From Plasmodiophora brassicae (taxonomy: Eukaryota): DNA of 64,000 nt. The notes beneath the pieces are model-generated. The model was not told where the DNA came from. It saw nothing but the letters and a program-made list of their open reading frames with translations, and did not search any database. The translations under genes were made by a program, and so were the position numbers. Where the stretch lies: assembly GCA_036867785.1 (NCBI GenBank), contig CP145420.1, forward strand, positions 1,116,001 to 1,180,000, in the 5' to 3' direction. This document shows, piece after piece, positions 14,100 through 63,026 of the stretch (position 1 is its first letter; each line of letters opens with the position of its first letter).

Positions 14100-14245
14100 T
14101 GTGATGTCCAAACGGTGATGGTTCATCGAACTGTGTATCGTCGAACCTCCAGCTCCAGCTCCTACCTCGGGATCTGGATTCGTCTTGTCGAATCACCGCT
14201 ATTCTTATCTTTTATAGCTTTGAGGCGGCACATTCCCCTCCTTCA
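14100..14245 (-). mobile_element. 3' LTR (14100-14232) plus PPT of a truncated Gypsy related to element B
   Basis: TG..CA ends. Both ends and the adjacent ttcccctccttc (PPT on minus) resemble the LTR at 30975-31171. Confidence 0.7.
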
Positions 14246-14680: not shown

Positions 14681-15522
14681 CAAACCGTAATATATATTAC
14701 GGTTTAGAGCGAACATTCCTAGACAGCCAGTTACGTTCCTAATCCAAATTATGTTCACGTTAGGAAATCGATTACGACTCCCGCGAGCGGCAGAGCGCGT
14801 CCTGAGTGCGGTTGGAGTTTCATTCTGCCTGTTCTGACTGCACGACTGGTGTTCGCCTGAACCTGAGCGACACAAACCACAAATGTTATGACACGACTGA
14901 CGACGACCAAACCTATCGACAACACGGAGTAGTCGACTGACGTCGACTCCGCGGCGTTTATTTGCGTCCGATATTGCGGACGCTGCAATCAGGGCCATGA
15001 GAGTTATAGTCTCGGTCACGCGGTTACCGCCTGCGGAGCCGCGGTCCTGCCTTGTTCGGATATTTCTTATGGGACTCAGAAATGGCCCGATCCAGGCCGC
15101 CGGTGCCATGGAGGTGCCGAGCGGGCTCCCAGGTGCGTTCCGGTGGGGGATAAGATAACCCTCCCAGTCCACGAGATAATGTAGCGAGTTGCGGATGTAG
15201 CGGGAATCCAATATGTGTGTACCACGTAAAAACGGCTCCTTCTCACCATTGTAGTCCGGGGTCCTATATTTAGCTCCTCATCACCTACGTCAGCATCAGC
15301 ATCCTCCAGATATTCACATGCGCCAGAGATTCATGTGTCGAGATATGCGGGGATCGAGAGCACGCGATCACGTGCGCCGCTGGTGGGAGAGCGGGGTACG
15401 GGATCGATGGTGGATAAACGGCATTCGTCTATTGTGTCACCCGAGGCTTGACGGAAGACACTATAGTGGCCACTACGTGTCGTACGTTGACTCTCCGTGA
15501 ACGACACCGACGACGACACGAC

Positions 15523-18500
15523 ATGGAGCTGACAAGCAGCAGCAGCAGCGGCGGCTCGACAAGCGCTACCATCGTTACGAACGCCGATGCGAGCATCCTG
15601 CCCAAGGCTAACAACCTTGACTCGACATCGATCCTGACGCTGCGCGAGGCGTACAACCGCTACGTCGCCATCTTCGAGGATCGGGAGGCGCAGCAGCCGC
15701 GGGGGCGTCGACTTCGTCCGCAAGGCATCCGGCTGTGCTTCACCGCCGTGCAGTTGAAGGCCATTGCCGAAAATCACCTGGACCTGGACGACGGCGCCGA
15801 GGCGTTGACTGACGAATTGCTGGACGGATGGATCCGAGACCAGGTCAACGCATTGCCCACCAGCCACGGGCTGCGTATTCAGGACATCGAGTCCAAGATC
15901 GCGGATGAGCTTTCGATGGATACCTCGATGTCGACCCTGCGAGATCAAATCGCGTCAATCCCGGACCAGCTGACGGCCATCCAGGACCGCCACGGTTGGA
16001 AGCTGAGCGAGACCGCCGGAGGACGCAAGGCCATGGGGCGCCTGATCGCTGACTCGCTCCAGCCCGGCTACCTCCGCGGTCACGTACAGGCATGGGTCAA
16101 GGAGGACAAGGCCGAACGTGAAGGCAATACCAGGGCGATCGTTCGCGAGGCGCAGGATTGGGCGAGGCACTTCGTCGCGATCGGACGCGCCCGCAACGCA
16201 TCGATCAAGCGTCCTCGGAAGAAGTGTTCCGAACTGCGACTCGCCGACAAGCAGAGCAAGCTGACTCCCGCTGCGACAACTTCAGGTGGACGCCGCGTAC
16301 CAGCCCATCGCCCTGTGCCCGCCAACCGGCAATCGGGCCCACATCCAGTGACCGTGAACGCTCCCAAGCGCAACCGCGAACCGACTGCGACAAGTGACAG
16401 CAGCCAGATGACGGGGACGACTGATGGCAAGCGCGACTTCAAATGCTGGCACTGCTCTGGGCCACATAAGATGTCGATGTGCCCAGAGAAGCCGACGAGA
16501 GAAAGGCGCAATGAGCTCGCACGTCATCATCGGCCCGCAGGCGGACATCATCCCGATGGACGTCGACCGATTAAAGTCGCCAAAACTCGCGCCTACACTG
16601 GGATCCAGCACGTGACACAGCAAGTAGAGATCGAGGGAAGGCGTATCCCTTATGTTCTAGACTCTGGCTGTGATGGGGGAAACCTCATACCTGAACACGT
16701 TGCGAATGAGTTGAAGGGCGCCACGTTCGAGGTTATCGAGCCCCGAGAAATCGCATCAGCCGACGACCAAGTCATTGCCGTCAGCACCCGCATCGTCACC
16801 GTTCCAGTGACGAAACTCGAAACCAAAGCTGGGAATCTCACCCTGTACCATGTTGCCTACTATGTCTGCGACGCTATTCCAGTCATCTTATTCGGCGACA
16901 CACTACTCTCTATGATCGGCATCAGTCCACGTCAGCAACTCGAGGACATGATCGCATCCGGCACCACCGAGTTTGATGCCAGACTATCTGGATGCGCCAT
17001 GTTCGATGTGGAGTCGTTCGACGCCGTCAGTGAAATCGTTGCAAGGATGGCGACGTTGAGCGGCGACACGTATCAGGCGCCACATGTACACGATGCGGCG
17101 GAACCTACCTCCAGTGATGTCGACTTAGGGCCGATCAACGTTCAAGAGATTGAGGCATCCCTCACCCGCCTGATACATCAAGCACGCCTCAACGGCATGT
17201 CTCGTCAAGGGGTTGCACGGCTACGACTCATCCTTCGACGACACGTCAACGAATTCCGCACACAGCTTGGTCAGGACGGTCCCGTCAACATCGAACCTAT
17301 GATTACCAAGCTTCAACCAGACGCCACGCCGTACCGATGCAGACCACGCTCCTACAACCCGAAGCAAAAGGAGTTCCTCGACGAGATGATCAAGATGCTG
17401 TTGGAAAACAATCTGGTCTACCTCAACATGAACTCCAGATGGGCGAGTCCCGTTCTTGTGGTCAAGAAACCGAACGGCAAGGGGTACCGCCTGTGCGTCG
17501 ATCTGCGCCAGGTGAACTCGCGTACGGTACCAACTGCTTGGCCGATGCCCAACATCGAGGCGGCTAGTCGGAAGCTGGCTGGCATGACCTGCTTCTTCAC
17601 GATCGATGCCCACAAGGGGTTCTGGCTCATGCCAATTGCGAAGGAATGCCAGGAGATCTTCTCGTTTATGACCGACGACGGCGTCTACACGCCTACCAGG
17701 AGCATTCAGGGCGCGACCAACTCTGCCTTGCAGTTCCAGGCGCGGATCGGGAAGATCTTCGACGACATGAAGGATCACCTCTTGATATGGATCGACGACC
17801 TGCTGGGATTCGCCAAAACGGAAGACATTCTACTGCATCAGCTTGCACGTGTCTTGGAGCGAGCGCGCGAACGCAACTTGAAGTTCAACCCGGACAAATG
17901 CGTCCTATTCGCTCGAGAGCTGAAGTGGTGTGGGCGCATCTACTCTCGTGATGGAATCCGACACGATCCCGAACGAATCGAGGCGCTGACCAGCATGCCG
18001 CGTCCTAACACTTTCAAAGAGCTACAGCAGTTCATCTGGGCGGCCAACTGGATGCGTACCAGTGTTCCCGGTTACGCGTACATCATCGCCCCGCTCCAGG
18101 AGCTCACGGACAAGGCGAACGAGGAGATGAAGAGAATCCAGTCTTCGTCACCTTCGTCGATTCGGTTACATGATCTTGGATGGACAGACCGGCACAGCAA
18201 GGCCTTCGAGGACATACGCTTTGCGCTGATCCAGCACGTCCAGCTCGCGTACCCGAAGTCTGATCACCAGACATGCTTGTTCACGGACGCCAGTGACCTA
18301 GCATGGGCTGCGGTCATTACCCAGATTCCGAGGGAGGATATCGACCTACCAGTTCATGAACAACGACACGAACCACTTGCTTTCTACGGCAAGCGGTTCT
18401 CTGGCGCTGAGTTGCGATGGTCAACACCGGAGAAGGAGGCAGCCGCCATCATCAAGGCGACTGAACGTGGTGACTTCCTTCTGCAGACGTCGCGTGAATT

Positions 18501-20328
18501 CCTCATGTTCTGCGACCACCGGAACCTCACGTTCATCTTCGCGAAGGACGCTGAGATGAAGAAGCACACCGCTCAGAAAATCGAGCGCTGGGCGCTACAT
18601 CTCCAAGGGTTTGATTACCGTACCAAGGAGATCTCCGGCACTGCCAACGTCTGGGCCGACCTTTTATCTCGATGGGGCGCAGGACGAATCGCACTGGCGT
18701 GCCGGGCAACGCGCATCTTGCAGATGGACGATCTTCGCGTAACGCCGATGACGCATCCCGATTTCCAATGGCCGACTGAGACCGAAATTCGCGAATCGCA
18801 AAGGCTATTGTCGCGTGAAGAGAAAATCGAGGACGGCGTGTTCTTCGATGATGACGCTCGTTTGTGGAAGTCGAAAACGAACGCCGTTCTGATCCCGATT
18901 CACAACGACTGCACCAGCTTGCGCCTACGCATCATGATCATTGGTCATTGTGCCAGTGCTGCTCATCGCGCGTACGACGTTACCAAGGAGGCAATCACAA
19001 CGCGATTCGCTTGGCCGGGCATGGACAAGGACATTCAGCAGATGTGCCAGCAGTGTCTTCATTGCATCACGACGCGGGGAGGAGCGAAGGTTCCGCGTCC
19101 GCTTGGAGAAGCGTTGCATGGCCACATTCCATTCGAGGTCCTGCACATGGATTACTTGTACGTCGAACCAGTTCGAGGAACCGATCATTCTTATAAGTAC
19201 ATCCTCGTGATGAAGGACGACTTCAGTGGTCTCGTCCGATTGATTCCATGCGCCGATGCGACCAGCCGAGTTGCGGCAGAGGCACTATTCCAATGGATTG
19301 CCGACTTCAAAACACCACAATATCTTGTCACCGATGGCGGATCTCACTTTACCGCCGAACTCATCAAGGAGCTGACCAGGCTGCGAGACGTCGAGCATCA
19401 TATAACGTTGGCGTACTGTCCATGGGCAAACGGGACTGTTGAACGCGCCAATCGCACTATCGTTGGCATCCTACGAAGCGTTCTGAGTGAGGGGCAGATC
19501 AGCACGCACAGCTGGCCCTACCTCTGCCCATTGGTGCAACACGCCATCAACCATTCGCCGAGCACACGCCTCGGAGGTTTCGCGCCGTTCACGGTCGTCA
19601 CCAAGTTGAAACCCGAGCACCCTCTGGACAACATCTGGGATCCGGCATGCAATCAGCTGCGGCCGATCTCTCCGGGATGGGTGGCGACGTACCTGTCAGC
19701 ACTGCAGACCGTTATGGACGAACTCCATAAGGTCGTCGATGAAGCCAGGGAGGCGAGGCACGCGTCCAATGTACGGCAACGCTCGCGACACGTGAGGAAG
19801 GCCCAATGCGAGTCGTTCATCCCGGGCGACTACGTCTTGAACGCGAAGCCCGTCCCCGGACCCGCACAGAAGTTGATTGCGCAGTGGCGCGGCCCCTACC
19901 GAGTTGTTCAACGCGTCAATGACCAGGTCTACGAACTCGAAGACCTGTTGACTGCACGGCGCTTCCAAGCACACACGCAACGCATCCGCCGCTATGCGGA
20001 CGCCGATCTCAACATCACCACCGAAATCAAGCAGCACCTTGAGCGGCTTGACCAGCAGTTCCACGTTGACGACCTTCTCGATTGTCGTATCGATCGCGAA
20101 ACTCAGGAGTTGCAGATCAAAGTCGCTTGGTCCGGCTTCGACCCATCTGAGGCTACTTGGGAGCCTGCAGCACTTATCACCGAAGATGTACCGCAGCTTG
20201 TGGAACAACTTATTCGGAAACTGGGCGATACTCATGCACACGTCGCTGCATTGAGGCAATTGATTCCGGCGCCGAAACGCTCTCGCACTCGGAATGCAAC
20301 ATCGCATCGAAATAAGCGACGATCTTAA
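15523..20328 (+). CDS. Gag-Pol polyprotein of Gypsy A (intact)
   Basis: Zn knuckle CWHCSGPHKMSMC, PR LDSG, RT WIDD, RNase H FTDAS, IN HHCC plus D-D-E (HMDY, VTDGG, VERAN), GPY, chromodomain VAWSGFDPSEATWEP. Confidence 0.95.
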   Translation: MELTSSSSSGGSTSATIVTNADASILPKANNLDSTSILTLREAYNRYVAIFEDREAQQPRGRRLRPQGIRLCFTAVQLKAIAENHLDLDDGAEALTDELLDGWIRDQVNALPTSHGLRIQDIESKIADELSMDTSMSTLRDQIASIPDQLTAIQDRHGWKLSETAGGRKAMGRLIADSLQPGYLRGHVQAWVKEDKAEREGNTRAIVREAQDWARHFVAIGRARNASIKRPRKKCSELRLADKQSKLTPAATTSGGRRVPAHRPVPANRQSGPHPVTVNAPKRNREPTATSDSSQMTGTTDGKRDFKCWHCSGPHKMSMCPEKPTRERRNELARHHRPAGGHHPDGRRPIKVAKTRAYTGIQHVTQQVEIEGRRIPYVLDSGCDGGNLIPEHVANELKGATFEVIEPREIASADDQVIAVSTRIVTVPVTKLETKAGNLTLYHVAYYVCDAIPVILFGDTLLSMIGISPRQQLEDMIASGTTEFDARLSGCAMFDVESFDAVSEIVARMATLSGDTYQAPHVHDAAEPTSSDVDLGPINVQEIEASLTRLIHQARLNGMSRQGVARLRLILRRHVNEFRTQLGQDGPVNIEPMITKLQPDATPYRCRPRSYNPKQKEFLDEMIKMLLENNLVYLNMNSRWASPVLVVKKPNGKGYRLCVDLRQVNSRTVPTAWPMPNIEAASRKLAGMTCFFTIDAHKGFWLMPIAKECQEIFSFMTDDGVYTPTRSIQGATNSALQFQARIGKIFDDMKDHLLIWIDDLLGFAKTEDILLHQLARVLERARERNLKFNPDKCVLFARELKWCGRIYSRDGIRHDPERIEALTSMPRPNTFKELQQFIWAANWMRTSVPGYAYIIAPLQELTDKANEEMKRIQSSSPSSIRLHDLGWTDRHSKAFEDIRFALIQHVQLAYPKSDHQTCLFTDASDLAWAAVITQIPREDIDLPVHEQRHEPLAFYGKRFSGAELRWSTPEKEAAAIIKATERGDFLLQTSREFLMFCDHRNLTFIFAKDAEMKKHTAQKIERWALHLQGFDYRTKEISGTANVWADLLSRWGAGRIALACRATRILQMDDLRVTPMTHPDFQWPTETEIRESQRLLSREEKIEDGVFFDDDARLWKSKTNAVLIPIHNDCTSLRLRIMIIGHCASAAHRAYDVTKEAITTRFAWPGMDKDIQQMCQQCLHCITTRGGAKVPRPLGEALHGHIPFEVLHMDYLYVEPVRGTDHSYKYILVMKDDFSGLVRLIPCADATSRVAAEALFQWIADFKTPQYLVTDGGSHFTAELIKELTRLRDVEHHITLAYCPWANGTVERANRTIVGILRSVLSEGQISTHSWPYLCPLVQHAINHSPSTRLGGFAPFTVVTKLKPEHPLDNIWDPACNQLRPISPGWVATYLSALQTVMDELHKVVDEAREARHASNVRQRSRHVRKAQCESFIPGDYVLNAKPVPGPAQKLIAQWRGPYRVVQRVNDQVYELEDLLTARRFQAHTQRIRRYADADLNITTEIKQHLERLDQQFHVDDLLDCRIDRETQELQIKVAWSGFDPSEATWEPAALITEDVPQLVEQLIRKLGDTHAHVAALRQLIPAPKRSRTRNATSHRNKRRS

Positions 20329-20453
20329 CCTGTACCATCACTCTGAATTAATCTCGATACCGTATCTGTTCGCGGGTGGACGATACGATGATGATCATGA
20401 TCATGGATTGGTCTCTCATGACAATCCAACCTGGTTGACGGCAACGTAACCAT

Positions 20454-20604
20454 GGTTCGACTTGGCTGGTTGCTTTGGGCACCACGGTCGGTTTGACTTG
20501 GCTGGTTGCTCGGTGCACCACGGTCAAAGTTCGGTTCGACTTGGCTGGTTGCCCACGGGACCACGGTCGATTTGACCTGGCTGGTTGCCATGTGCACCAC
20601 GGTC
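20454..20604 (+). repeat. Four ~36-bp tandem units in the 3' UTR of Gypsy A
   Basis: Approximate unit ggttYgacttggctggttgc-N6-caccacggtc, four copies. Confidence 0.85.
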
Positions 20605-21959
20605 AATGTTGTTCGATGGACTACGTGCTGTCCATCTCGCGAGGCATTCGGCAGCATCTATTAAGTTCCTCTTCACCGCAGGATTGACTCTGTCAGGGAG
20701 TACTGATGTCGAGGCTCCTGTTGCGCTGGGGGTCCACCCATGGGGGTCGGCCGCTGAGCTAGGTGAATGACACTTTCTAGATGTATATGGACCGGGCTCC
20801 ACCCATGGGGGTCGAGCGCACCATTGCTGATGTCGTCGTTTGCTACTTTGCACTCGGTCAAGGTACCTGAGGTTCTTTGATACGCTAAATCGTGTATGCA
20901 TAGGTGGAAGACGGTCTCGAAGAGGGTGTCCGTAAATGGATTTTCCACCGATTTGTCCCATGGGGTTACAAGGTGGTTTTTAGTGAGTAGTGGGTGTTCT
21001 GCACTCGAGTCTCACACTACCCTGCGTCTTCGTCCGTCATTCTCCTCTCGACTGCTCCTCTGACTCCGGTTCTGAGTTCGGGAAAAGGCAGTGTAGTCCG
21101 GGGTCCTATATTTAGCTCCTCATCACCTACGTCAGCATCAGCATCCTCCAGATATTCACATGCGCCAGAGATTCATGTGTCGAGATATGCGGGGATCGAG
21201 AGCACGCGATCACGTGCGCCGCTGGTGGGAGAGCGGGGTACGGGATCGATGGTGGATAAACGGCATTCGTCTATTGTGTCACCCGAGGCTTGACGGAAGA
21301 CACTATACCATCGATGACTAAGGGAGGAGGAGGCGGTTGCGTGTGTCCCGAAATTACGTTTGGAACGTGCGGTTCGAGCAGGGACACATGAAACACGTCA
21401 TGGATCTTCATGGCCGGCGTCAATTCGAGTTGAACGGCAACGGGGTTGACGATATGGCGGATGCGAAACGGTCCCATAAGGGGAAAGTCAAGCTTCGCTC
21501 ACGGTCGGTGCGTGGACAGTCCCTGGCGCCGCGACACGACGAAATCCCCGACGCGGTAAAGACGGTGTGGCATCCGACGTGCGTCCGCCGTCCGTTTCAT
21601 GTTGGCGATGGCCTTTTGGAGACGCGCGTGTAGCACCTGGCGGATTTGGTCCATGTGCGGGGCACGTTCCTCAGCTGACGGATTGACATGACCGGCCGCA
21701 CGGGTCGTAACTCGTATGCACGCGGATGGAATCCGTAGTTGACGTAGAACGGAGACGTGCCCGACGGAATGCTTGGCGTTGTTGTACGCGAATTCTGCCA
21801 ACGGTAAGAATCCTAGCCAGTCATTCTGCAGGTAGTTGATGAAACACCGTAGGTATTGCTCCAGGACCTGATTAACGCGCTCAGTCTGACCGTCGGACTC
21901 GGGATGTCGCGAGGAAGGCAGGTTTCGCTGCATACCTAGGCTGTGCAACTGGAATGGCA

Positions 21960-29459: not shown

Positions 29460-29633
29460 ATCGGGGTTGAGAAACGCGGTCGAGGGTGATGAGGCCTGGT
29501 CATCTACTAACTTAGCAAAATGTGCAAAGAAGGACTCGGCGGGCGCTTTCAAGGGCGGGTCCCCGCAGAGACGCTCGAACACAGCTGTGGTATTGGAAAA
29601 TACGGCCACCCAACTAGGATCCAGGTCAGGGCG

Positions 29634-30118: not shown

Positions 30119-31369
30119 CCAGGTCAGGGCGACAATGGTTGCGAACATCAGAAGATTGAGGCTGTGACCGTCTCGGAAGCCACCATTGGAGGGAGGCGGC
30201 GGGAGCGGCGGGAGAGATCGTCTCACCCCTCATCGAACGGGGCCCCAGTTCCGGAAGGAGGACATAAGGGGCGTGGACTCGGAGCCCGAACGGGGCAATG
30301 ATAAGTGATCGGTGTGGCTGGGGGCAACAGTATCTTTGAAGGCGGCGGCCCCCGGGGAGCTACCATAATCGAAAGCGGAAGGGCTCGGCCTGTCGTCGAC
30401 GGCAGCAATGGCAATGTGGCAGTCCGGGTGGTCGTCGTTAGCTACGGAAGCCAGCTTGCCGTCGACAAACGCGGATGTAAGCGGCAACGTTTCGAGTGAT
30501 TCAGCTGAAGGGATGGCACACGCAGGCGCAGGAACGCTTCGTGAAGGAGGTGAGACCCCATCCGAGAGACTATTCCCGCGCTTCACTGTTGCAAATGGTC
30601 CCGCCGAAGAGACAAAGGACCCAGACTCATGGACGTCTCGTGTACGGCGTGACATCCCCACGAGGGTATCTCCGCGGCGCTGTAGGCGGCGCTGACGCCA
30701 ATCGATATCTGGGTTTGTATCCGCCAACCAAGGCAGCCCAAGAACGACAGGGTGTTGAGGCGAGTGGATCATGTTCAGGACGACGTCACTGTCGAAACAT
30801 CCGTCGACGGTAGCACGTAGCGGGACGGTTTCCTGAGTTACTGGAGACAGGTGTCGCCCGTCGATGACGCGAACAGGAATGGCACGCGATTTAGAGCGAA
30901 CCGGCGTTTTCAGGCAGGACGCAATAAAATGCCCAACTTCGCGATAATAGTGGCAAGCCAGGGGTTGTGCCCTTTGTGACGTCCTAACGGTGATGGTTTA
31001 TCGAACCGTGTGCGTAGTCGTCTGTGTCCTCGACCTGCAGCTCCCACGGACGCCGTGCCGACGCCGTGCGGACTCCGTGCCGACGCCGTGCGGACTCCGT
31101 GCATGTCCGTCATTCTTAGGGCGGCCAGCCGGATCACAGCTATTCTTGTCTTATAGCTTGGAGCCGGCACATTCCCCTCCTTCAAAGAAATGCTCCTCCT
31201 TGCAGGTGTCTTCAGTGGTGGTGTATCGTAATCATTTCTCCTCCTTAATATAGTCTAATTAACATAATTAAGTCTCAATCTTCGTAGAACACAGTTTTGG
31301 CTTCTGTCGTCACATGGCCATCGGCATTAAAATAACCCAGCGCGCATCCGGGAAAAAAGCATGACTAGC

Positions 31370-36054: not shown

Positions 36055-36894
36055 CGCGTCCTTCTTTGAAACCTTCCCCGAAAGGATGTTCAAGAGATCT
36101 CTGTGACGTCCTAACGGTGATGGTTTATCGAACCGTGTGCGTAGTCGTCTGTGTCCTCGACCTGCAGCTCCCACGGACGCCGTGCCGACGCCGTGCGGAC
36201 TCCGTGCATGTCCGTCATTCTTAGGGCGGCCAGCCGGATCACAGCTATTCTTGTCTTATAGCTTGGAGCCGGCACACCTTGCATCACCGCCAGCGTTGAT
36301 GGCGGCGATTGGGTATTTCGACTCAAGATGAGCCGCCATCTCGAGAATTTTGTCGTAGTCTCTGAAGTTGTAGAAGAAGAGCGCCTCGGAGAGCGCAGGG
36401 TTCATCGAGAGGCGGAACGTTTCCGCCAAGCGGGCCGGATTGAGTCTGTACAATGGGTCAAGTCGTTGAAGGTCCTTGTACAAGCGTTGGAAGGCCAGTG
36501 CTGTAGTCAGTCTCGAGCTCTCGAGCCAATATCCCAATGAGTTTTATCATCCATCCCATCCACGGCGTCGGCCATGCCATCACAGTGGAGCTAAATCCGT
36601 GCAGGCCCCCTTTCCTCAGGACAGCAGGACCCCGTTCTCCTCAGGACAGCAGCATCTTGAGGTCGGGCACGAAATATAGAGCCCCGCTCTACACTGCCTT
36701 TCTCCGAACTCGTGCCCGGAACCAGCAACATCATCATCGTGCCCGGCGAAGATAGAGAAGACGGCGAAGGGTAGTGTGAGACTCGGAATCATCCAATACT
36801 CACTAAAACCCACCTTGTAACCCCATGGGAAAAATCGGTGGAAAATCCATTTACGGACACCCTTGCCACCGCCACCACCATGAACTAGCCGAGA

Positions 36895-53390: not shown

Positions 53391-56300
53391 ACCGTCCAGG
53401 CCTCGAGCCGCCAAACTTTCTTGCAGGCTCGCAGGACGATAGGAAGGAGAGCATTGTATGCGCTGCTCCCAGATCATCCTCGACCCAACTTTGTTGACGG
53501 AATCGTTTCAGCCATCGAGATCTTCCACGACCAGTCCCCATTGCAGAGATGATGTGGGGCCCGCCACCACCAACCATTGTAGAGCGGGGCTCTATATTTA
53601 GCGTCTCGTGCCCGACCTCAAGATGCTGCTGTCCTGAGGAGGGGGTCCTGCTGTCCTGAGGAAAGGGGGCCTGCACGGATTTAGCTCCACTGTGATGGCA
53701 GGGCCGACGCCGTGGATGGGATGGATGATAAAGCTCATTGGGATATTGGCTCGAGACTGACTACAGTGCGCACTCTGTCTGATCCCACACGTCTGACTTC
53801 GTCCCGCACCACGTCGAGACGCTGCGCCATGGCATCGGAGAAGACGTCCAGCACGGACGAGCATATTGGTGTCAAGGACGCGGATGTCAGCATCCTGCCA
53901 CGGGTCGCGAAGTTGGACTCCACATCCATCTTGAAGTTGAAAGAGCAGTACGATCGATGTTGTGCAGTGGTGATCGACCGTGAGGGCAACCGTCCGGAAG
54001 CCGCGAGGATCAAGCCTCAAGCGATACGATTCTGCTTTACCACGCCGCAGCTGACCTGCATCGCGTTGAATCACCTGTTCCTGACCAATGTCGACCTGCT
54101 GACAGAGGACGACCTGGAAGGATGGATCGAAGCGCAGATCAAAAAAGCTTCCAGCGAGTCATGGCCTGACGACCCAAGACATTGAGGCCAAAATCGCGAG
54201 TGAGCTGTCGATGGACACCAGCCTCCCGACTCTGAGGGATCAAGTTCAGTCGATCCTGGACCGCATGACTGAAATCCAGTGGAGACGAGGCTGGCAGCAC
54301 ATGCGCGAAACAGTCGGTGGGCGTAGAGCCCTTGGCCGTTTGCTGGTTGATACGCTTCAACCATGGAGGCTACGTGACTTCACAAGGCACTGGGTCAAGG
54401 AGGACAAGTCCAAGCGCGGGGGACCTGAAGGCGATTATGAAGCAAGTGCAGGAGTGGATCGCGCACAAGGTCGCTGTCAACGGTTCCGCCCAGATTGGTG
54501 GCGTATCCAAGAAGACCTGCGCCGAGCTTCGTCTGAACGACCGCAGCCACAAGTATCAGGTGGCGATCACGTCGGGGGGACGACGCGTTCGGGAACATCG
54601 TCCTCCTCCTCTGAATCGGCCGACCCGTCGCGTGAGCAGCAGACACCTGCTACGAAGGTCAAGTCGCCTGGAGAACCAACGGTACAGTTCATACCCCCTA
54701 GCGTGTCGACGGCCGAGAATGAGACAGCGTCGAGCACGAAGTGGACACGCGACACTGCAGCTGAACGTAAAGGCGCCAAGATCACGTGTTGGAACTGTGC
54801 GGGGCCGCACAGTTTAAAGGAGTGTCCGACGAAGCCGTCCAAGGAGAAGTGCTATGAGCTTGTTCGCGCCAACCATCGCCCGATAAAGATCCAGAAGACT
54901 AACGGGTACGCTGAGACTGTCGATGATCTACAACGCGTAGTGCTGGAAGGCATACGTGTTCCGTACGAGTTGGATTCCGGCTGCCGCGGAGGCAACATCA
55001 TGCCTGGCCATATCGCTGTCCAGTTGAAAGAGGCCACGTTCCGTGACGTTCAGCAACGAGACGTCACCTCAGCAGAAGGCAAAGTTATCGGAACCATAAC
55101 GCGCACGGTGCAAGTTCCAATCACGATCCTGGAGACCGAAGTTGGCAATTTGACGCTGTATCATGTGACCTACTACGTTTGCGACGAGATTCCTGTGATC
55201 CTGTTCGGTGACAATCTGCTAACGACTCTCGGCATCAATCCGCGTCAGCAACTCGAGAACATCATCGCGTCAGGATGCACCAAGATGGATACGCTCTCAG
55301 GATGTGCCGCAGTCGATGTCGATTGTATCGAGACCGTGAGGCGAATTGCCGCGAGAATGGCAACGTTGCGAGGAGATCACTACCCAGTACCAGAGTCGGA
55401 CTCTATGGAACCATCGTCAAGTGAAGTTGACTTGGGACCGATAAATGCTCACGAGATCGAAGCTTCTTGTAACCGGATGGTACACCAAGCACGTCTCAAT
55501 GGCATGTCTCGTCAAGGAGTTGCTAAGCTACGATTGATCTTGCGACGACATCTGAACGAATTCCGCACGCGTCTGGGTCAAGACAAGCCTGTCGATGTCG
55601 AACCGATGGTAACACAACTCAATCAGGACGCTACTCCGTACCGGTGCAAGCCTCGGTTCTACAATCCTAAGCAGAAGGAGTTCCTAGACGACATGATCAG
55701 TATGCTGAAGGAGAACGGTCTTGTCTACATGAACATGAACTCGCGATGGGCAAGTCCAGTCCTAGTCGTCAAGAAACCGAAAGGCGATGGCTATCGTCTA
55801 TGTGTCGATCTTCGCCAAGTGAACGCACGGTGTGTTCCCACAGCATGGCCGATGCCGAATGTTGAGGCTGTTACGCGCAAGCTCTCCGGCATGACTTGTT
55901 TCTTCACGATTGATGCTTTCAAGGGCTTCTGGTTGATGCCTTTGGCTAAGGAGTGTCAGGAAATCTTCAGCTTCATGACGGACGACGCTGTATTCACGCC
56001 TACGAGGAGCATTCAAGGGGGAATGAATTCGGCGGTTCAGTTCCACGCCCGAATGGCTGCTATCTTCGACGACATGAAGGAGAATTTGCTCATCTGGATT
56101 GACGAGATACTCGGATTCGCGAGGTCGGAGGAAGACCTTCTTCATCAACTGACACGAGTGTTGGAGCGGTGTCGCGAGCGCAACCTGAAGCTGAACCCGA
56201 ACAAGTGCACGTTGTTCGCTCGCGAGTTGAAGTGGTGCGGCAGGATATACTCGCGAGAAGGAGTTCGGCATGATCCAGAACGCATCGAGGCGCTGACCAG

Positions 56301-56990: not shown

Positions 56991-59900
56991 TGTAGTCCCG
57001 TGTCTGCAGACTCTTGACGGCACGTAATGACACAGAAACAGAATGACGTTTATCAATCGCATCGTCACGACGACGTCAGCCTCGCCACGTCATCGTGCTA
57101 AATCGGGGCACGCAGTTTGTCTAAATATAGTCCAGGACCGTCAGGTCAAGTGGCAGCACGTTGATGTAGGGAACGAGACGCTATAAATAGAGCCCCGCTC
57201 TACACTGCCTTTCTCCAAACTCGTGACCGGAATCATCGTGAGCACGTAGTACGTAGATGGTGAAGTTGACAGAAGGTAGTGTGAGACTCGGAATCACCCA
57301 ATACTCACTAAAAACCACCTTGTAACCCCAAGGGAAAAATCGGTGGAAAATCCATTTACGGACACCCTTGCCACCAAACACCATCGGTGCAACGAAGACA
57401 TCAGCGATGGTGCGCTCGACCCACATAGGTGGAGCCCGGTCCATATACATCTGAAAAGTATCATTCACCTAACTCAGCGGCCGACCCACATAGGTGGACC
57501 CCCAGCGCAACAGAGTCTCGATAGCCAGTACGCCCTGACCAGAGTCAACTGCGGTGAAGAGGAACTTAACAGACGCTGCCGACTGCCTCGTGATCGTAAC
57601 GTATCAATGAGGTCACCGTCATGACCCATCGAGGAACGTATTGGCCTCTCATAGGAGTGCCATAAACCATAGTCGCATGACGTCCATGACAACCAGGTTA
57701 ACTGATCCCATGACGTCCATGAAAATCAGTGAAGCGGGTCCCAACGTTTTGAGTACCCGGTCCTCAGCTATAGAAGACCATGATCCAGATCATCTTCGTA
57801 ACGTTCACCATGAACCGATACGGTGGCGTCGTCCGTGATTAGGTCCCGACGCAACGTAGGAAGCGTATACGATTGTTGATTCCTACGAACCCAACAACCG
57901 TAAATCATGGATACCTTGCACCCATACCTAATGTTTTGTTCGTCGCTTCCGTTGCGCTTGTCGCTTTCACGTATTCGTACGCTTTTGCATCGGCGCCATT
58001 TCTCGTAACGCCTCCACTTGCGGATGATAATCTCCGAGACGTCGTATAAGCTTCTGGACTAGTTCGGGAACATCTTCGTAGATGACACGAGCAGGTTCCC
58101 ACGTTGCTTCCGCCTCGTCGAATCCAGACCATAGAACCTTGATCTGAAGTTCTTGCGTTTCTCGATCCACTCGACAGTCCAGTAGATCGTCCACCAACAG
58201 CTGGTTATCAGCGTGCTGGAGTTGACGCTTGAGATCGACGGTCATGTTCAGATCGGCGTCAGCGTATCGTCGAATTCGTTGTGAGTGTGCGTTGAAGTGT
58301 CGTTCAGTGAGCGGGTCTTCCAGCTCGTACACTTGATCGTTGATCATCTTGACGACTCGATATGGGCCTCGCCACTGGGCTATCAACTTCTGAGCAGGAC
58401 CCGGTACCGGTTTTGCGTTGAGCACGTAGTCGCCAACGATGAACGATTCGTAGTGGCTCTTGTTCAGGCGTCGTCGCTGTTGTCGCACATTAGACGCATG
58501 CCGTTGTGCCTTTGCTTCATCAACGGCCTTGTGAATCTCGTCGAGGACCTCTTGTAACGTCGGCACATACTTGGCGAATCCTTCAGGTGGTATGCGTCGC
58601 CATTGTCTCTCCTTCGGATCCCAGATCTGGTCGAGCGGGCTTTCTGGCGAACGCCCCGTGACGACCGTGATCGGCGCGTAACCGTTGAGACGTCGACTTG
58701 GCGTGTGATTAATGACGTGCTGAACGACTGGACACAAGTACGGCCAGTTGTGCGTCGTAATCTGGGCCTCGTTCAGGATCGAACGCATGACGTTGAGCAC
58801 AGTGCGGTTTGCGCGCTCCACCGTGCCATTGGCCCATGGACAGTATGCAGTCGTGATGTGATGCTGAACATCTCGTAACCTGGTAAGCTCCTCCATGATT
58901 TCCGCCGTGAAGTGTGAACCACCGTCCGTGACCAGGTACTCAGGCGTCGCGAAATCAGCAATCCACTGATTCAGAGCTTCCGTAGCAACACGACTTGTCG
59001 CCTCAGCTGATGGGATCAGGCGTACGTAGCCGCTGAAGTCGTCCTTCAAGAGCAGGATGTACGTGTACTGGTGGTCCGTGCCCCTGACTGGCTCCACGTA
59101 GAGGTAATCCATGGTGAGCACGTCGAACGGCTTGTGGCCATGCAACGCTTCACCAAGTGGTCTTGGAACTTTCTTACCACCGCGTGTCGTAATGCAATGC
59201 AGACATTGCTGGCACATCGCTTGAATGTCCTGACTGATCTTCTTCCAGGCGAAGCGCTCCATGATCATCTGCTTGGTTACGTCGTACGCACGATGACCAG
59301 CGCTCGCGCAATGACCAATAATCAGGATCCGTAGTCGTAGACTCTTGCAGTCCAGATGGCATGGGATGAGAACAGCTTTGTCCTCGTTCTTCCACAAACG
59401 ATCAGCTTCGTCGAAGTAGACGCCATTGTCAATCTTCTCGTCCCGTGACAGTACTCGCTGTGCATCGCGAATCTCCGTCTCCGTCGGCCAGCTAAACTCA
59501 GGATGCTGTCGAGGAGTGACTCGCAAGTCGTCAAGCTCCATGATGCGTGCTGCTCGACATGACAAGGCGATACGACCGGCGCCCCATCTTGTCAGCAGGT
59601 CAGCCCAGACGTTGTCCTCTCCGGCGATGCTCTTCGTCTGGTAGCGGAACCCCTGCAGGTGCAACGCCCAACGTTCCAGCTTCTGGGCGGTGTGCTTCTT
59701 CATTTCGGAGTCCTGACTGAAAATGAACGTCAGATTGCGATGATCGGTATAGAGTAGGAACTCTCGTGATGTCTGAAGCAGGAAGTCCCCGCGTTCCGTG
59801 GCGTAGATGATCGCGGCCGCCTCCTTCTCGGGCGTAGACCATCGTAGTTCTGAACCAGCGAAGCGTTTGCCGTAGAACGCGAGAGGTTCGTGACGTTGAT

Positions 59901-62900
59901 CGCAAACAGGCAGGTCGATATCCTCCAACGGGATCTGCGTGATGACAGCTGCCCATGCCGTTTCACTTGCGTCGGTGAATAGGCATGTCTGGTAGTTCGA
60001 CTTCGGGTAGGCCAGCTGAACGTGTTGAATCAGGGCGAACCGTATGTCCGTAAATGACTTGTTGTGCTGGTCACTCCAACCCAACGCGTCAAGCGTGATC
60101 GATGATGGCGTTGCGGATCGAATACGCTTCAACTCGTCATTGGCCCGATCGATAATGTCTTGTAGTGGACGGATGATACAGGGATAGCCGGGTATGTGAG
60201 TACGCATCCAGTTGGCCGCCCATAGGAACTGCTGCAACTCCTTGACAGTTCGCGGACGCGACATGGTCGTAAGCGCTTCGATACGTTCTGGGTCGTGTCG
60301 TACACCATCACGTGAGTAGATTCGCCCGCACCACTTCAGTTCACGAGCGAATAACGTGCACTTGCCCGGATTCAGTTTCACATTGCGTTCACGACATCTC
60401 TCAAGAACCCGCGTCAGCTGATGTAGCAGGTCGTCCTCTGACTTTGCGAATCCAAGGAGGTCGTCGATCCATATCAGCAGATTGTCCTTCATGTCGTCGA
60501 AGATCGCTGCCATCCGAGCATGAAATTGAATTGCCGAGTTCATGCCTCCTTGAATACTCCTCGTAGGCGTATAGACAGCGTCGTCCGTCATGAAGCTGAA
60601 CATTTCTTGGCATTCCTTTGCCAAAGGCATTAGCCAGAAGCCTTTGAACGCGTCGATCGTGAAGAAGCATGTCATGCCAGCAAGCTTGCGCGTGACCGCC
60701 TCCACGTTAGGCATCGGCCAGGCGGTGGGGACACACCGCGCGTTGACCTGGCGTAGGTCGACACATAGACGGTAGCCGTCGCCCTTCGGTTTCTTTACGA
60801 CTAAGACGGGACTTGCCCAGCGAGAGTTCATGTTCATGTAGATGAGACCGTTCTCCTTGAGCATTTTGACCATATCGTCAAGGAATTCCTTCTGCTTCGG
60901 GTTGTAGAACCGCGGCTTGCACCGGTAAGGCGTAACATCCGGCTTCAGCTGCGTTACCATCGGTTCGACATCGACAGGCTTATCTTGCCCCAGCCGCGTA
61001 CGGAATTCGTTCAGGTGTCGTCGCAATATCAGACGTAGTCGACTAACTCCATGTCGGGACATTCCGTTGAGGCGTGCTTGATGCACCATTCGATTGCACG
61101 ACGTTTCGATCTCGTGCACGTTGATTGGTCCCAGGTCGACTTCACTTGAAGATGGCTCAGCGGAGTCTGGTTCCTGAGGGGCTTGAAAGTAGTCGCTTCC
61201 AAGCGTTGCCATTCTAGCAGCAATGCGCCGCACAGTCTCGATTGAATCGACGTCGACTGCCGCACATCCTGACAGCGTGTCCATCTCGGTACATCCTGAT
61301 GCGATGATGTTCTCCAGCTGCTTATGCGGGTTGATGCCAAGCGCAGATAGAAGATTGTCACCGAACAGGATCACTGGAATCGTGTCGCAGACGTAGTAGG
61401 TCACATGGTACAGCTTAAGGTTGCCAACCTCGGTCTCCAGAGTCGTGACTGGAACTTGTACCATTCTCGTGATCGTCCCGATGACCTTGCCCTCCGCGGA
61501 AGAGATTTCTCGTGGCTGGACGTCGCGAAATGTGGCATCATTCAACTGGTCAGCGATATGGCCAGGTATGATATTTCCACCACGACAGCCCGAATCCAGT
61601 TCGTAGGGAACGCGCATGCCTTCCAGCACTACCCGTTGCAAATCGTCCTCAGTCCCAGTGTACCCGTCAGTCTTCTGGACCTTTATAGGGCGATTGGCGC
61701 GGACAAGCTCAATGCAGCGCTCCTTCGATGGTTTCGTTGGGCAGACTCGCAACCCGTGGTCGCCGCCGCAATTCCAGCAAGTGATCTTGCCGGCGTTCTT
61801 CTTCTCAGGGTCGTCGTCCCTCCGTCGCTTTGTCGCATTCCCGTTCGCTTGTGCTTCAGGATCTCGAGCCTCCACTTTCGTAGCGTTCGGCTGCGTGCTG
61901 AGAACCGTAGCGGGCTTCGGACGGGTCGGTCGGTTCGAGGGTGGCGGGCGATGCTGCGCGACGCGTCGACCGCCAGCTGTCACCGTCACCTGGTATTTGT
62001 GACTCTTGTCACTAAGGCGTAGTTCGGCACAGGTCTTGTTCGACACTCCCGCGATCTGCGCGGAGCCTTGCACGAAGACCTTGTATCGGACCCATTCCAA
62101 GGCGTGCTTCATGATGCCCTTCAAGTCACCCTCCCGGTTGGTCTTATCGTCTTTCACCCATTGCCGCACATGGTCCCGTAATGGCCATGGCTGAAGTGTG
62201 TCCACCAACAATCGGCCAAGTGCTCGGCGTCCACCGGTCGTGTCTCGTAGGTGAAGCCATCCGCGCTTCCACTGGATCTCCGTCATCCGATCCAAGATGG
62301 ACTGCACTTGGTCCTTCAACGTAGGGAGGTTCACGTCCATCGACAGCTCCTTGGACATCTTGACTTCGATGTCCTGCGTCGTGAGCCCATGGCTGGCCGG
62401 AAGACTCTTGATCTGGCCGTCGATCCACCCTTCGAGTTCCTCATCAGTCAGCATGTCGACGCTGCGAAGGAAAAGGTGGTTCAGTGCAATGGACGTCAGC
62501 TGTGGCGTCGTGAAGCAGAAGCGGATTGCTTGCGGCTTGATCCTAGCTTCCTCAGGACGTTGTCCTTCGCGGTCAGTCACGACAGCACAGTAGCGATCAT
62601 ACCGCTCCTTCAACTTCAGGATCGACGTAGAATCCAGCTTCGTCGCGTGCGGAAGAATGCTGAGGTTTGCCGAGCTCTTGAAACCGCCGACGTTCGCGCC
62701 TTGCGACTGAGATGCCATGACGTTGTAAACAGTTGCGACGCTCCGCCGCCCGTTAACGTGTAGCGTGTACGTGTGGTTGGACGTATACGTAGGGGTGGGA
62801 CGTAGTGCGCACTGTAGTCCCGTGTCTGCAGACTCTTGACGGCACGTAATGACACAGAAACAGAATGACGTTTATCAATCGCATCGTCACGACGACGTCA

Positions 62901-63026
62901 GCCTCGCCACGTCATCGTGCTAAATCGGGGCACGCAGTTTGTCTAAATATAGTCCAGGACCGTCAGGTCAAGTGGCAGCACGTTGATGTAGGGAACGAGA
63001 CGCTATAAATAGAGCCCCGCTCTACA
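56991..63026 (-). mobile_element. Gypsy D: full-length chromodomain LTR retrotransposon
   Basis: 214-bp LTRs at 56991-57204 and 62813-63026 (identical by eye), TSD CTGG, PPT ggagaaaggcag. Confidence 0.97.
57967..62718 (-). CDS. Gag-Pol polyprotein of Gypsy D (intact, 1583 aa)
   Basis: CWNCGGDHGLRVC, LDSG, WIDD, FTDAS, HHCC/DDE, GPY and chromodomain. Confidence 0.95.
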   Translation of the reverse strand: MASQSQGANVGGFKSSANLSILPHATKLDSTSILKLKERYDRYCAVVTDREGQRPEEARIKPQAIRFCFTTPQLTSIALNHLFLRSVDMLTDEELEGWIDGQIKSLPASHGLTTQDIEVKMSKELSMDVNLPTLKDQVQSILDRMTEIQWKRGWLHLRDTTGGRRALGRLLVDTLQPWPLRDHVRQWVKDDKTNREGDLKGIMKHALEWVRYKVFVQGSAQIAGVSNKTCAELRLSDKSHKYQVTVTAGGRRVAQHRPPPSNRPTRPKPATVLSTQPNATKVEARDPEAQANGNATKRRRDDDPEKKNAGKITCWNCGGDHGLRVCPTKPSKERCIELVRANRPIKVQKTDGYTGTEDDLQRVVLEGMRVPYELDSGCRGGNIIPGHIADQLNDATFRDVQPREISSAEGKVIGTITRMVQVPVTTLETEVGNLKLYHVTYYVCDTIPVILFGDNLLSALGINPHKQLENIIASGCTEMDTLSGCAAVDVDSIETVRRIAARMATLGSDYFQAPQEPDSAEPSSSEVDLGPINVHEIETSCNRMVHQARLNGMSRHGVSRLRLILRRHLNEFRTRLGQDKPVDVEPMVTQLKPDVTPYRCKPRFYNPKQKEFLDDMVKMLKENGLIYMNMNSRWASPVLVVKKPKGDGYRLCVDLRQVNARCVPTAWPMPNVEAVTRKLAGMTCFFTIDAFKGFWLMPLAKECQEMFSFMTDDAVYTPTRSIQGGMNSAIQFHARMAAIFDDMKDNLLIWIDDLLGFAKSEDDLLHQLTRVLERCRERNVKLNPGKCTLFARELKWCGRIYSRDGVRHDPERIEALTTMSRPRTVKELQQFLWAANWMRTHIPGYPCIIRPLQDIIDRANDELKRIRSATPSSITLDALGWSDQHNKSFTDIRFALIQHVQLAYPKSNYQTCLFTDASETAWAAVITQIPLEDIDLPVCDQRHEPLAFYGKRFAGSELRWSTPEKEAAAIIYATERGDFLLQTSREFLLYTDHRNLTFIFSQDSEMKKHTAQKLERWALHLQGFRYQTKSIAGEDNVWADLLTRWGAGRIALSCRAARIMELDDLRVTPRQHPEFSWPTETEIRDAQRVLSRDEKIDNGVYFDEADRLWKNEDKAVLIPCHLDCKSLRLRILIIGHCASAGHRAYDVTKQMIMERFAWKKISQDIQAMCQQCLHCITTRGGKKVPRPLGEALHGHKPFDVLTMDYLYVEPVRGTDHQYTYILLLKDDFSGYVRLIPSAEATSRVATEALNQWIADFATPEYLVTDGGSHFTAEIMEELTRLRDVQHHITTAYCPWANGTVERANRTVLNVMRSILNEAQITTHNWPYLCPVVQHVINHTPSRRLNGYAPITVVTGRSPESPLDQIWDPKERQWRRIPPEGFAKYVPTLQEVLDEIHKAVDEAKAQRHASNVRQQRRRLNKSHYESFIVGDYVLNAKPVPGPAQKLIAQWRGPYRVVKMINDQVYELEDPLTERHFNAHSQRIRRYADADLNMTVDLKRQLQHADNQLLVDDLLDCRVDRETQELQIKVLWSGFDEAEATWEPARVIYEDVPELVQKLIRRLGDYHPQVEALREMAPMQKRTNT

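What the first reader, a model, noticed from the sequence alone, without database searches (positions are those of the whole stretch)
15465..15474. Four Gypsy elements replace the tRNA primer-binding site with a position-fixed, sequence-variable 10-bp palindrome
Seen: starting at the last base of the 5' LTR, A has AGTGGCCACT (15465-15474), E has AGTGCGCACT (53765-53774), D has AGTGCGCACT (62804-62813, minus) and the distant family B has AGAGATCTCT (36093-36102, minus). These are three different sequences, all perfect palindromes in the same register. None reads as a convincing tRNA-3'-end PBS (A's GTGG is confined to the palindrome), and I saw no Tf1-type match inside the LTRs. Known: LTR elements normally prime on tRNA 3' ends, tRNA halves, or Tf1-type self-annealing; HIV dimerises through a palindromic DIS. 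Inference: two genomic RNAs pair through the palindrome, and a cut at its 3' side would leave a 3'-OH pointing exactly into the partner's U5, giving tRNA-independent dimer priming. A and D are intact with identical LTRs, so the mechanism was working recently. I cannot tell whether related WIDD-type lineages have been described with this feature.
Basis: partly seen in the sequence, partly recalled or inferred. Interest (0 to 1): 0.85.

Follow-up and report, generated by a model that had tools for sequence, protein, structure and literature searches.

The report
Palindromic primer site in Gypsy retrotransposons
A large group of Gypsy-type jumping genes carries, exactly where the usual tRNA primer site should sit, a short sequence that differs between lineages but is always a perfect palindrome, which points to an unusual, still unproven way of starting DNA copying.

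Summary
All four sites are perfect palindromes that start at the last base of the 5' LTR. The LTR ends were fixed independently, by the LTR pairs and the target-site duplications.

The same layout is present in 25 of 84 related contigs from metagenomes and MAGs. That includes 3 of the 3 hold-out contigs that carry a 5' region. There are 13 different palindrome cores. On an RT tree, one clade of 24 rows (SH-aLRT 100) holds only palindrome bearers, with at least 12 changes of core sequence. Self-complementarity is therefore under selection, not a particular sequence.

No TGG tRNA signature is present except in A. No Tf1-type complement lies inside the LTRs. There is no conserved second hairpin arm.

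The feature is not tied to the WIDD motif, since YxDD lineages of the clade have it too. It is also not unprecedented. [quoted passage not shown]

Priming between two paired RNAs is the most coherent explanation, but it is inference only. Verdict: a real feature and a new variant of a known kind.

The parts
15250..15465 (+). Element A, 5' LTR (TGTAG...ACTATA, 216 bp); TSD CCAT at 15246-15249
   Evidence: the DNA-run unitig spans exactly 15250-15465
15464..15475 (+).
15523..20328 (+). Element A gag-pol ORF, 1601 aa: PR, RT (IWIDD), RNase H, IN, chromodomain
21080..21091 (+). Element A polypurine tract GGGAAAAGGCAG, directly before the 3' LTR
21092..21307 (+). Element A 3' LTR, identical to the 5' LTR; TSD CCAT at 21308-21311
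62813..63026 (-). Element D 5' LTR (TGTAG...CTACA); TSD CCAG at 63027-63030
62804..62813 (-). Element D palindrome AGTGCGCACT
57967..62718 (-). Element D gag-pol ORF, 1583 aa
56991..57204 (-). Element D 3' LTR; TSD CCAG at 56987-56990
53578..53765 (+). Element E 5' LTR. E is split by the insertion of D and runs off the end of the window
53765..53774 (+). Element E palindrome AGTGCGCACT
36102..36276 (-). Element B 5' LTR (TGTGCC...GTCACA, 175 bp); TSD AAGG
36093..36102 (-). Element B palindrome AGAGATCTCT
30975..31171 (-). Element B 3' LTR (197 bp, with a 22-nt insertion relative to the 5' LTR)
36502..36693 (-). 3' LTR of the truncated relative F. It fixes the E-type LTR end at ...CTACA
15413..15419 (+). 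GATAAAC box, conserved in the LTRs of A, D, E and F 47-53 nt before the LTR end. It is a candidate poly(A) signal and/or TATA-like box. Contigs from two RNA-type runs break just downstream of it (15418/15420 and 15438/15441)

Best explanation
The 10-14-nt perfect palindrome occupies the primer-binding position of these chromodomain Ty3/Gypsy elements.

In LTR elements the LTR end marks where minus-strand DNA synthesis begins (established model, recalled). The RNA that primes synthesis must therefore end in a sequence complementary to the 5' part of the palindrome. Because the site is a palindrome, that primer sequence is the palindrome itself.

The only RNA expected to keep pace with 13 different cores is the element's own RNA. 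I therefore propose these steps:
1. Two copies of the genomic RNA pair through the palindrome.
2. A Tf1-like RNase H cut at or near the 3' edge of the palindrome leaves a 3'-OH facing the partner's short U5.
3. Reverse transcriptase extends that end into U5 and R. If both partners are cut, each primes on the other. RNase H would then remove the copied R-U5 RNA and leave only the palindrome RNA as a short primer.
4. Plus-strand synthesis copies that primer and regenerates the site.

What is shown: the position, the perfect symmetry, the covariation, and the absence of tRNA-type and Tf1-type signatures. What is inferred: the pairing between two RNAs, the cut and the priming.
For: **Register.** Where the LTR end is fixed by the LTR pair, the palindrome starts at the last LTR base (or within 1-3 nt of it) in 8 of 8 elements of the clade:
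- A, D, B, and E (through F) in the window.
- L046, L058 and L060.
- L082.

**Spread.**
- 22 of 80 metagenome loci carry such a palindrome at most 150 nt before a long ORF.
- 3 of the 3 hold-out MAG contigs that have a 5' region carry it too.
- C|A-start palindromes run at only 0.16 per kb in the background.

**Covariation.**
- 12 cores are seen among 24 distinct sites. Pairs 1-4 each show 3-4 different base-pair types. Pairing then falls away sharply: 18/24 at pair 6, 7/24 at pair 7, 0/24 at pair 8.
- A 13th core, AAAGCGCTTT, turned up in L081.
- On the RT tree the 24-row clade (SH-aLRT 100) is all bearers, with at least 12 core changes.

**No room for another primer site.** The gag ATG follows the palindrome by only 7-8 nt in L031 and L004.

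**No Tf1-type complement** inside the LTRs.

**Contrasting outgroup.** L073, which has a YMDD RT, has ca|GT|TGGGCG..., a TGG-type site, and no palindrome.

**Different cores side by side.** Families that share one genome carry different cores (GGCC, GCGC, GATC). This fits recognition of self.

**The element is transcribed and R+U5 is short.**
- Three RNA-type runs hold about 85% of A's sampled words.
- In two studies the contigs break inside the LTR at 15418/15420 and restart at 15441/15438.
- In those runs the 5' flank has no cover, and LTR depth roughly equals internal depth rather than twice it.
Against: - No experiment or read-level datum shows a dimer, a cleavage or a primer. Only contigs were available, and they cannot show RNA ends.
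- The RNA label of those runs is the tool's guess. One of them (X15) bridges the whole LTR.
- Host tRNAs and tRNA fragments could not be compared.
- A 10-12-bp AU-rich duplex is weak without a chaperone. In the one Pfam scan, at E <= 0.001, no zinc-knuckle family matched any of the five proteins scanned.
- Dyad symmetry beyond the palindrome is not general: mean z is -0.3 over 23 sites. There is therefore no conserved larger structure to mark a cleavage site.
- In MMTV, palindromes inside the PBS turned out not to be needed for dimerisation (PMC8096270, passages). A palindrome at a PBS does not by itself prove dimer function.
- L069, which lies outside the main clade, has a palindrome about 450 nt before its ORF. 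Its role is unclear.
Confidence: 0.45

Rival explanations
1. The palindrome is only a dimerisation or packaging signal, a DIS placed at the U5 border. Minus-strand synthesis would then be primed by something not yet identified, for example a very short match to a cellular RNA.
For: - Palindromes that pair two genomic RNAs are well known in retroviruses (HIV-1 DIS, recalled).
- PBS palindromes have been discussed for MMTV and HIV-2 (PMC8096270).
- Cofold predicts that the palindrome pairs between two strands in 12 of the 13 leaders tested (not L028). The energy gain beat every one of 100 shuffles only in A and D.
Against: - The palindrome begins at the LTR's last base in every lineage. That is the place fixed by the 3' end of the primer, so the primer must pair here.
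- The ATG follows after 7-8 nt in some lineages, which leaves no separate primer site.
- No alternative primer candidate was found.
Confidence: 0.2
2. The site works within one RNA molecule, as proposed for the GalEa Conserved Hairpin Site. The palindrome would sit at the tip or in one arm of a hairpin that RT recognises as its initiation structure.
For: - In A, B and L012 the end of U5 and the leader fold into hairpins of about 19-22 bp with the palindrome at the apex (z = -2.0, -3.2 and -1.6).
- GalEa elements pair their palindrome with a second motif downstream (PMC5445492, section 10).
Against: - No conserved second copy or complement lies downstream. Best matches are 5-9 of 10 at scattered distances.
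- Flank complementarity is absent on average: mean z is -0.3, and 12 of 23 sites have z at or below 0.
- A perfect palindrome with no loop cannot fully fold on itself.
- A cut hairpin leaves no template for copying U5.
Confidence: 0.12
3. The palindrome acts as double-stranded DNA, as a binding site for a dimeric protein (integrase, a host factor or a transcription factor), or it helps plus-strand transfer.
For: Many cores look like classic dimer-protein or restriction-type sites (GAATTC, GTTAAC, GATATC, AGATCT). The site also lies next to the end that integrase recognises.
Against: - Protein recognition should conserve the sequence. Here the sequence changes at least 12 times while the symmetry is kept.
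- The site lies outside the LTR, so it is absent from the 3' end of the DNA that integrase handles.
Confidence: 0.08
4. This is ordinary priming by a host tRNA 3' end or an internal tRNA fragment, and the palindromy is incidental.
For: - Element A reads G-TGG-CC two bases after the LTR.
- Use of internal tRNA fragments is known for copia and Ty5 (recalled) and was proposed for FunCo1 (PMC5445492).
Against: - 12 of the 13 cores have no TGG next to the LTR.
- Thirteen different perfect palindromes cannot all be images of tRNA segments.
- The L073 outgroup shows what a TGG-type site looks like in these contigs.
- Not fully testable here: no host genome or tRNA set is available.
Confidence: 0.05

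Closest known systems
Conserved Hairpin Site of fungal GalEa Ty1/Copia elements (Donnart et al. 2017, BMC Genomics 18:410, PMC5445492; I read section 10 and passages of the discussion, not the supplements)
   Same: - There is no tRNA-type PBS.
- A 9-nt motif directly after the 5' LTR is palindromic once the LTR's final A is counted. That is the same register and the same 10-nt size.
- Variants keep the symmetry.
- RT has an unusual residue before DD (QTDD there, often WIDD here).
- The authors found no Tf1-type complement and left the mechanism open.
   Different: - That case is in the Copia superfamily in Pezizomycotina. This one is in chromodomain Gypsy elements whose nearest named relatives are Plasmodiophora proteins, plus environmental contigs.
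- GalEa has essentially two cores (85% of families). Here there are 13.
- GalEa has a conserved second motif 12-41 nt downstream with a fixed A/A mismatch. None is found here.
Tf1/sushi-type self-priming (Tf1, Tf2, Maggy, Skippy, CfT-1, Boty; listed in PMC6934838; mechanism as summarised in PMC5445492 and PMC5006619, plus recall)
   Same: - Both are Ty3/Gypsy chromoviruses that do not use tRNA.
- The primer would come from the element's own RNA after an RNase H-type cut.
- The duplex length is similar (about 11 nt in Tf1, recalled; 10-14 nt here).
   Different: - Tf1 pairs the first bases of its transcript with a non-palindromic PBS within one molecule.
- Here no complement lies inside the LTR. 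Primer and site are the same sequence, which calls for two molecules.
Retroviral dimer initiation sites and PBS palindromes (HIV-1 DIS, recalled; MMTV and HIV-2 PBS palindromes, PMC8096270 passages)
   Same: A short palindrome in the 5' leader that can pair two genomic RNAs.
   Different: - In retroviruses the DIS sits in a hairpin loop and exists alongside a tRNA PBS.
- The MMTV PBS palindromes come from the tRNA sequence and were not needed for dimerisation.
- Here the palindrome is the only element at the primer position.
Skipper elements of dictyostelids (PMC5006619, passages)
   Same: Chromodomain Gypsy elements that lost the TGG-type PBS, show no Tf1-type complement, and are suspected of a new kind of self-priming.
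   Different: Skipper has a polypyrimidine stretch after the LTR, not a palindrome.

Membership tests
Ty3/Gypsy chromovirus | A single polyprotein with the order PR, RT, RNase H, IN and a C-terminal chromodomain, flanked by LTRs with TG..CA ends and a short TSD | tested here: met
   Pfam RVT_1, RT_RNaseH, rve, Integrase_H2C2 and Chromo match in A, D and B. A's LTR ends TA rather than CA.
tRNA-primed LTR element (canonical PBS) | TGG within a few nt of the LTR end, opening a run of 8-18 nt complementary to the 3' end of a host tRNA | tested here: not met
   TGG next to the LTR is seen only in A. It is absent in 12 of the 13 cores.
tRNA-primed LTR element (canonical PBS) | Complementarity to any host tRNA, including internal fragments | not testable with these tools
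   No genome is held. The window has no tRNA gene and no Rfam match.
Tf1/sushi self-priming group | The sequence just after the LTR is complementary to the first bases of the transcript, inside the LTR | tested here: not met
   There is no exact complement of 6 nt or more in A, D or B, and only 6-nt hits in E. In A, folding with G-U pairs allowed pairs the start of the fragment, which was set at 15438 (the putative RNA 5' end), with positions 21-35 nt past the LTR end, not next to it.
GalEa-type Conserved Hairpin Site | The post-LTR motif is palindromic when the LTR's final A is included | tested here: met
GalEa-type Conserved Hairpin Site | A second conserved motif 12-41 nt downstream, the inverse complement of the first, with a fixed A/A mismatch | tested here: not met
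   Over 26 sites the best downstream matches are 5-9 of 10, at positions +10 to +70, with no common place.
GalEa-type Conserved Hairpin Site | Membership of the GalEa Copia clade (pol order IN before RT, RVT_2) | tested here: not met
   The elements have RVT_1 followed by rve and chromo, which is the Gypsy order.
Retroviral-type DIS | A palindrome displayed in the loop of a conserved hairpin, separate from the PBS | tested here: not met
   There is no conserved flanking stem, and the palindrome itself sits at the PBS position.

The most novel reading that the evidence does not exclude
Reverse transcription in this clade starts by reciprocal priming between two co-packaged genomic RNAs that pair through the palindrome. 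This would be a third mode of LTR-element priming, beside tRNA priming and Tf1-type self-priming within one molecule. It would have arisen at least twice: in these protist chromoviruses and in fungal GalEa Copia elements. Each family's private palindrome would act as a self-recognition code.
Probability: 0.4. Interest if true: 0.85.

Novelty: new variant of a known kind. Interest (0 to 1): 0.68.

Why it matters
How LTR elements start cDNA synthesis is settled for tRNA priming and for Tf1. The palindromic site of GalEa Copia elements has had no explanation since 2017.

This finding shows the same architecture in a large and old clade of Gypsy elements. Thirteen cores and at least 12 compensatory switches show that self-complementarity itself is what selection keeps. 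That narrows the possible primers to the element's own RNA.

It also supplies intact, transcribed elements (A and D) for a direct test. In practice, LTR annotation tools that require a tRNA-type PBS may mis-score such elements.

Tried and rejected
- **Whole genome and host tRNAs:** not available. ARAGORN found no tRNA in the window and Rfam found nothing.
- **Tf1-type complement inside the LTRs:** none.
- **GalEa-type second motif:** none.
- **Extended dyad of U5 and leader around the palindrome:** striking in A, B and L012, but not general. Mean z is -0.3 over 23 sites, so I dropped it as a defining feature.
- **Link to the WIDD motif:** rejected.
- **Viral contigs:** no relatives, either with one protein or with the alignment.
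- **Earlier findings of this scan:** nothing.
- **MAFFT alignment of the 30-mers:** it lined the sites up on the CA border rather than on the centre. I therefore counted pairs in a script instead of with the count of structure pairs.
- **Direct repeats in L007 and L033:** these are duplicated coding sequence, not LTRs, so they were not used.
- **Sequencing runs:** all are kept as contigs, so RNA starts, RNA ends and a cut at the palindrome could not be looked for. The break in the contigs of X9 and X12 is only a weak hint. No variant letters at 15465-15474 are among the listed differences, but 50 rows were not shown.
- **Literature:** 'palindromic PBS' gave 0 papers. 'chromovirus + primer binding site + palindrom' gave 5 papers; I saw only the listing and none looked relevant. 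A five-term search gave 8 papers; I read passages of two and neither describes this feature. 'Conserved Hairpin Site' gave 2 papers. The Plasmodiophora + retrotransposon + LTR search listed host-plant and population papers; I saw only the listing.

Full report
**1. What is in the window**

I fixed the LTR ends without using the palindromes.
- A has two identical 216-bp LTRs, 15250-15465 and 21092-21307, flanked by CCAT.
- D has identical LTRs, 62813-63026 and 56991-57204, flanked by CCAG.
- B has LTRs 36102-36276 and 30975-31171 (88.8% identical, with a 22-nt indel), flanked by AAGG.
- E has only its 5' LTR in the window. D is inserted into E, and E then runs off the end. The end of E's LTR matches the 3' LTR of a truncated relative, F.

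In each element the first base of the palindrome is the last base of the LTR. In A the perfect palindrome is 12 nt long (15464-15475), because the LTR ends TA instead of CA.

A, D and B are chromodomain Ty3/Gypsy elements with RVT_1, RNase H, rve and Chromo domains. Their RT motif is IWIDD. The best named protein relative is a Plasmodiophora brassicae protein at 71% identity. More distant named relatives are from oomycetes, and most relatives are unnamed metagenome proteins.

**2. Is it more than chance?**

Perfect palindromes of 10 nt or more occur at 1.3 per kb in 336 kb of related loci, and at about 1.6 per kb in the window (by subtraction). One in a fixed register is therefore expected about once in 700 trials per lineage.

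**3. Relatives from elsewhere**

An alignment of 27 polyproteins was used to scan metagenome contigs. Of 559 pattern matches, 372 encoded relatives, and the best 80 loci were kept.

Where a pair of LTR copies defines the LTR end, three loci of the clade show a palindrome that starts at the last LTR base, or within 1-3 nt of it:
- L046: AATAACGTTATT.
- L058: ATATTAATAT.
- L060: AAAGTAATTACTTT. Its border is ambiguous by up to three A's.

The distant L073 (YMDD, 26% identity) instead has ca|GT|TGGGCG..., a TGG-type site.

I then scanned the leaders before long ORFs. In all, 22 of the 80 loci have a perfect palindrome of 10-14 nt that begins with the A of a terminal CA (TA in L001, L002, L007 and L018), 6-142 nt before an ATG that opens 300 codons or more.
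- L069 is doubtful, because its palindrome lies about 450 nt before the ORF.
- Most of the other 58 loci are fragments that start inside pol. I did not establish for each of them whether a leader is present.
- Among the 10 loci with an unbroken ORF of 1400 aa or more and a closed start, six have the palindrome within 200 nt before the ATG (L001, L003, L012, L019, L028, L033). L058 has it at its LTR end, before a separate gag ORF. L064, L067 and L069 do not have it there.

As a hold-out test I scanned the prokaryote genome collection, where such elements can only be contaminant contigs. Four loci came back, and all three that have a 5' region carry the palindrome:
- L081: AAAGCGCTTT, a new core.
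- L082: ATTGATCAAT. Here the repeat 234-333 = 4913-5012 puts the LTR end exactly on the first palindrome base.
- L083: AGTAATTACT.

**4. Covariation**

I centred 26 sites on the palindrome, which gave 24 distinct 30-mers.
- Pairs 1-5 are complementary by construction, but pairs 1-4 each use 3-4 different base-pair types.
- Pairing then falls to 18/24, 7/24 and 0/24 at pairs 6-8, and to 2-9 of 24 further out. The symmetric unit is therefore compact and sharply bounded.
- There are 12 cores in this set, and 13 once L081 is added.

I built an RT tree of 31 rows. L060 was left out because its RT match was too short.
- The tree has a clade of 24 rows with SH-aLRT 100 in which every row bears a palindrome.
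- Parsimony needs at least 12 changes of core within the bearers.
- The rows outside that clade are G, L064/L067 and L072/L073/L075, which have none, and L069.

Each change of core needs at least two matched substitutions. Selection is therefore on self-complementarity, not on a sequence.

**5. What it is not**

- **Not tied to WIDD.** Bearers include RTs reading VYLDD, QYVDD, VYIDD, LYLDD, LYIDD and LYVDD.
- **Not a Tf1-type site.** No exact complement of 6 nt or more to the post-LTR 30 nt lies inside the LTRs of A, D or B. E has only two 6-nt hits.
- **Not a tRNA 3'-end site.** Only A has TGG next to the LTR. Internal tRNA fragments could not be excluded directly, because no genome is held and the window has no tRNA gene. 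Thirteen perfect palindromes cannot all mirror tRNA segments, however.
- **Not a GalEa-type two-motif hairpin.** The best downstream matches to the core are 5-9 of 10, at scattered distances.
- **Not part of a conserved larger stem.** A, B and L012 fold into long hairpins with the palindrome at the tip, but over 23 sites the flanks are no more complementary than shuffled flanks, with a mean z of -0.3.

**6. Expression and the ends of the RNA (weak evidence)**

Eighteen runs hold half or more of A's sampled words. Several are guessed to be RNA. I laid four runs on 15100-21085.
- The DNA run X1 gives a unitig that spans exactly 15250-15465 at about twice the internal depth.
- In X9 and X12, which come from two studies, a contig runs from the 3' internal region through AGGCAG into the LTR and stops at 15418 or 15420. 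The next contig starts at 15441 or 15438.
- The depth bins add up with nothing in between.
- X12 and X15 have no cover of the 5' flank, and in these runs LTR depth roughly equals internal depth.

This is what RNA would give if the repeat shared by both RNA ends (R) is shorter than the 31-nt word. The RNA start and the poly(A) site would then both lie about 25-75 nt before the LTR end, near a GATAAA box that is conserved in A, D, E and F. X15 bridges the LTR, and contigs cannot show true ends, so this stays a hint.

**7. Mechanism**

By the standard model of LTR formation (recalled), U5 ends where the primer's 3' end pairs. The palindrome starts on that base in all lineages. In L031 and L004 the ATG follows after 7-8 nt, so the palindrome is itself the primer site.

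A primer that pairs with a palindrome has the sequence of the palindrome. An RNA that tracks 13 cores can hardly be anything but the element's own RNA. A perfect palindrome with no loop cannot pair with itself within one molecule, which leaves pairing between two RNAs.

A cut at the 3' edge, as the Tf1 RNase H makes in its RNA-RNA duplex (recalled), would give a 3'-OH that faces the partner's U5. If both partners are cut, each primes on the other. RNase H then removes the copied R-U5 RNA and leaves the protected palindrome as a 10-14-nt primer, which plus-strand synthesis copies back. If one primer base is retained, the LTR would end on the A, as observed. All of this is inference.

My confidence, by step:
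- The site is functional and selected for symmetry: about 0.95.
- It is the initiation site: about 0.75.
- The mechanism is dimer cross-priming: about 0.45.

**8. What is known**

Donnart et al. 2017 (PMC5445492; I read section 10 and passages of the discussion, but could not see the supplements) reported the following for fungal GalEa Copia elements:
- They lack a PBS.
[quoted passage not shown] It reads CTGATCAGT or CTAATTAGT in 85% of families.
- A complementary second motif lies 12-41 bp downstream.
- The RT motif is QTDD.
- The authors found no Tf1-type complement, noted the likeness to a DIS, and said no known model fits.

Skipper elements lack a PBS in a different way (PMC5006619). My searches found no paper describing a palindromic primer site in Gypsy elements, within a library that misses most subscription journals.

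**9. Verdict**

The feature is real, under selection and widespread. It is a Gypsy counterpart of the GalEa site without the second motif, so I class it as a new variant of a known kind.

Noticed in passing
window 49930-50251 (related copy at 29148-29460): A 322-bp unit has the same 70-nt perfect palindrome at both ends (49930-49999 and 50182-50251). It starts TGTAG and ends CTACA, like the LTRs of A, D and E. It encloses 182 bp whose own ends are inverted repeats, and it is flanked by TTGG on both sides, a 4-bp duplication like those of A and D. It may be a small non-autonomous element moved by the same integrase. An imperfect copy of the palindrome lies at 29327-29405.
   Followed up: partly
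window 23716-24199 and 29634-30118: The two 485-bp repeats around the Copia ORF (24706-28503) are each flanked by their own 13-bp direct repeat (GGTTGGCCTGATC and CCAGGTCAGGGCG). They look like two separate insertions of a short element, not the LTRs of the Copia.
   Followed up: partly
window 44183-49849: Element G is a distant Gypsy (about 25% identity) with 96-bp LTRs and a 5-bp duplication, CTGAG. It has no palindrome after the LTR. Instead, the post-LTR GTTTGACCGAC is complementary to 9 nt inside the LTR (positions 65-73), which may be a Tf1-type arrangement.
   Followed up: partly
window 15833-16244: Contigs of all three RNA-type runs (three studies) join 15833 to 16244, skipping 410 nt inside gag of A. 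The DNA run does not show this. The ends are CC..CG, not GT..AG. It could be a deleted copy or an unusual splice.
   Followed up: no
window 14100-14232 (minus strand): A B-like LTR remnant is preceded by the family's polypurine tract and followed by unrelated sequence. It is probably the 3' end of an old, truncated copy.
   Followed up: no
window 15265-15272, 63005-63012, 53593-53600: A strong TATA-like box (TATATTTA or TATTTATA) about 15 nt from the 5' end of the LTRs of A, D and E is conserved. The RNA-type contigs nevertheless suggest that transcripts start much further downstream, so its role is unclear.
   Followed up: no
L082 5040-5049: CTACATGTAG, the sequence expected where an LTR end abuts an LTR start, lies 28 nt beyond the 3' LTR of this contig.
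   Followed up: no
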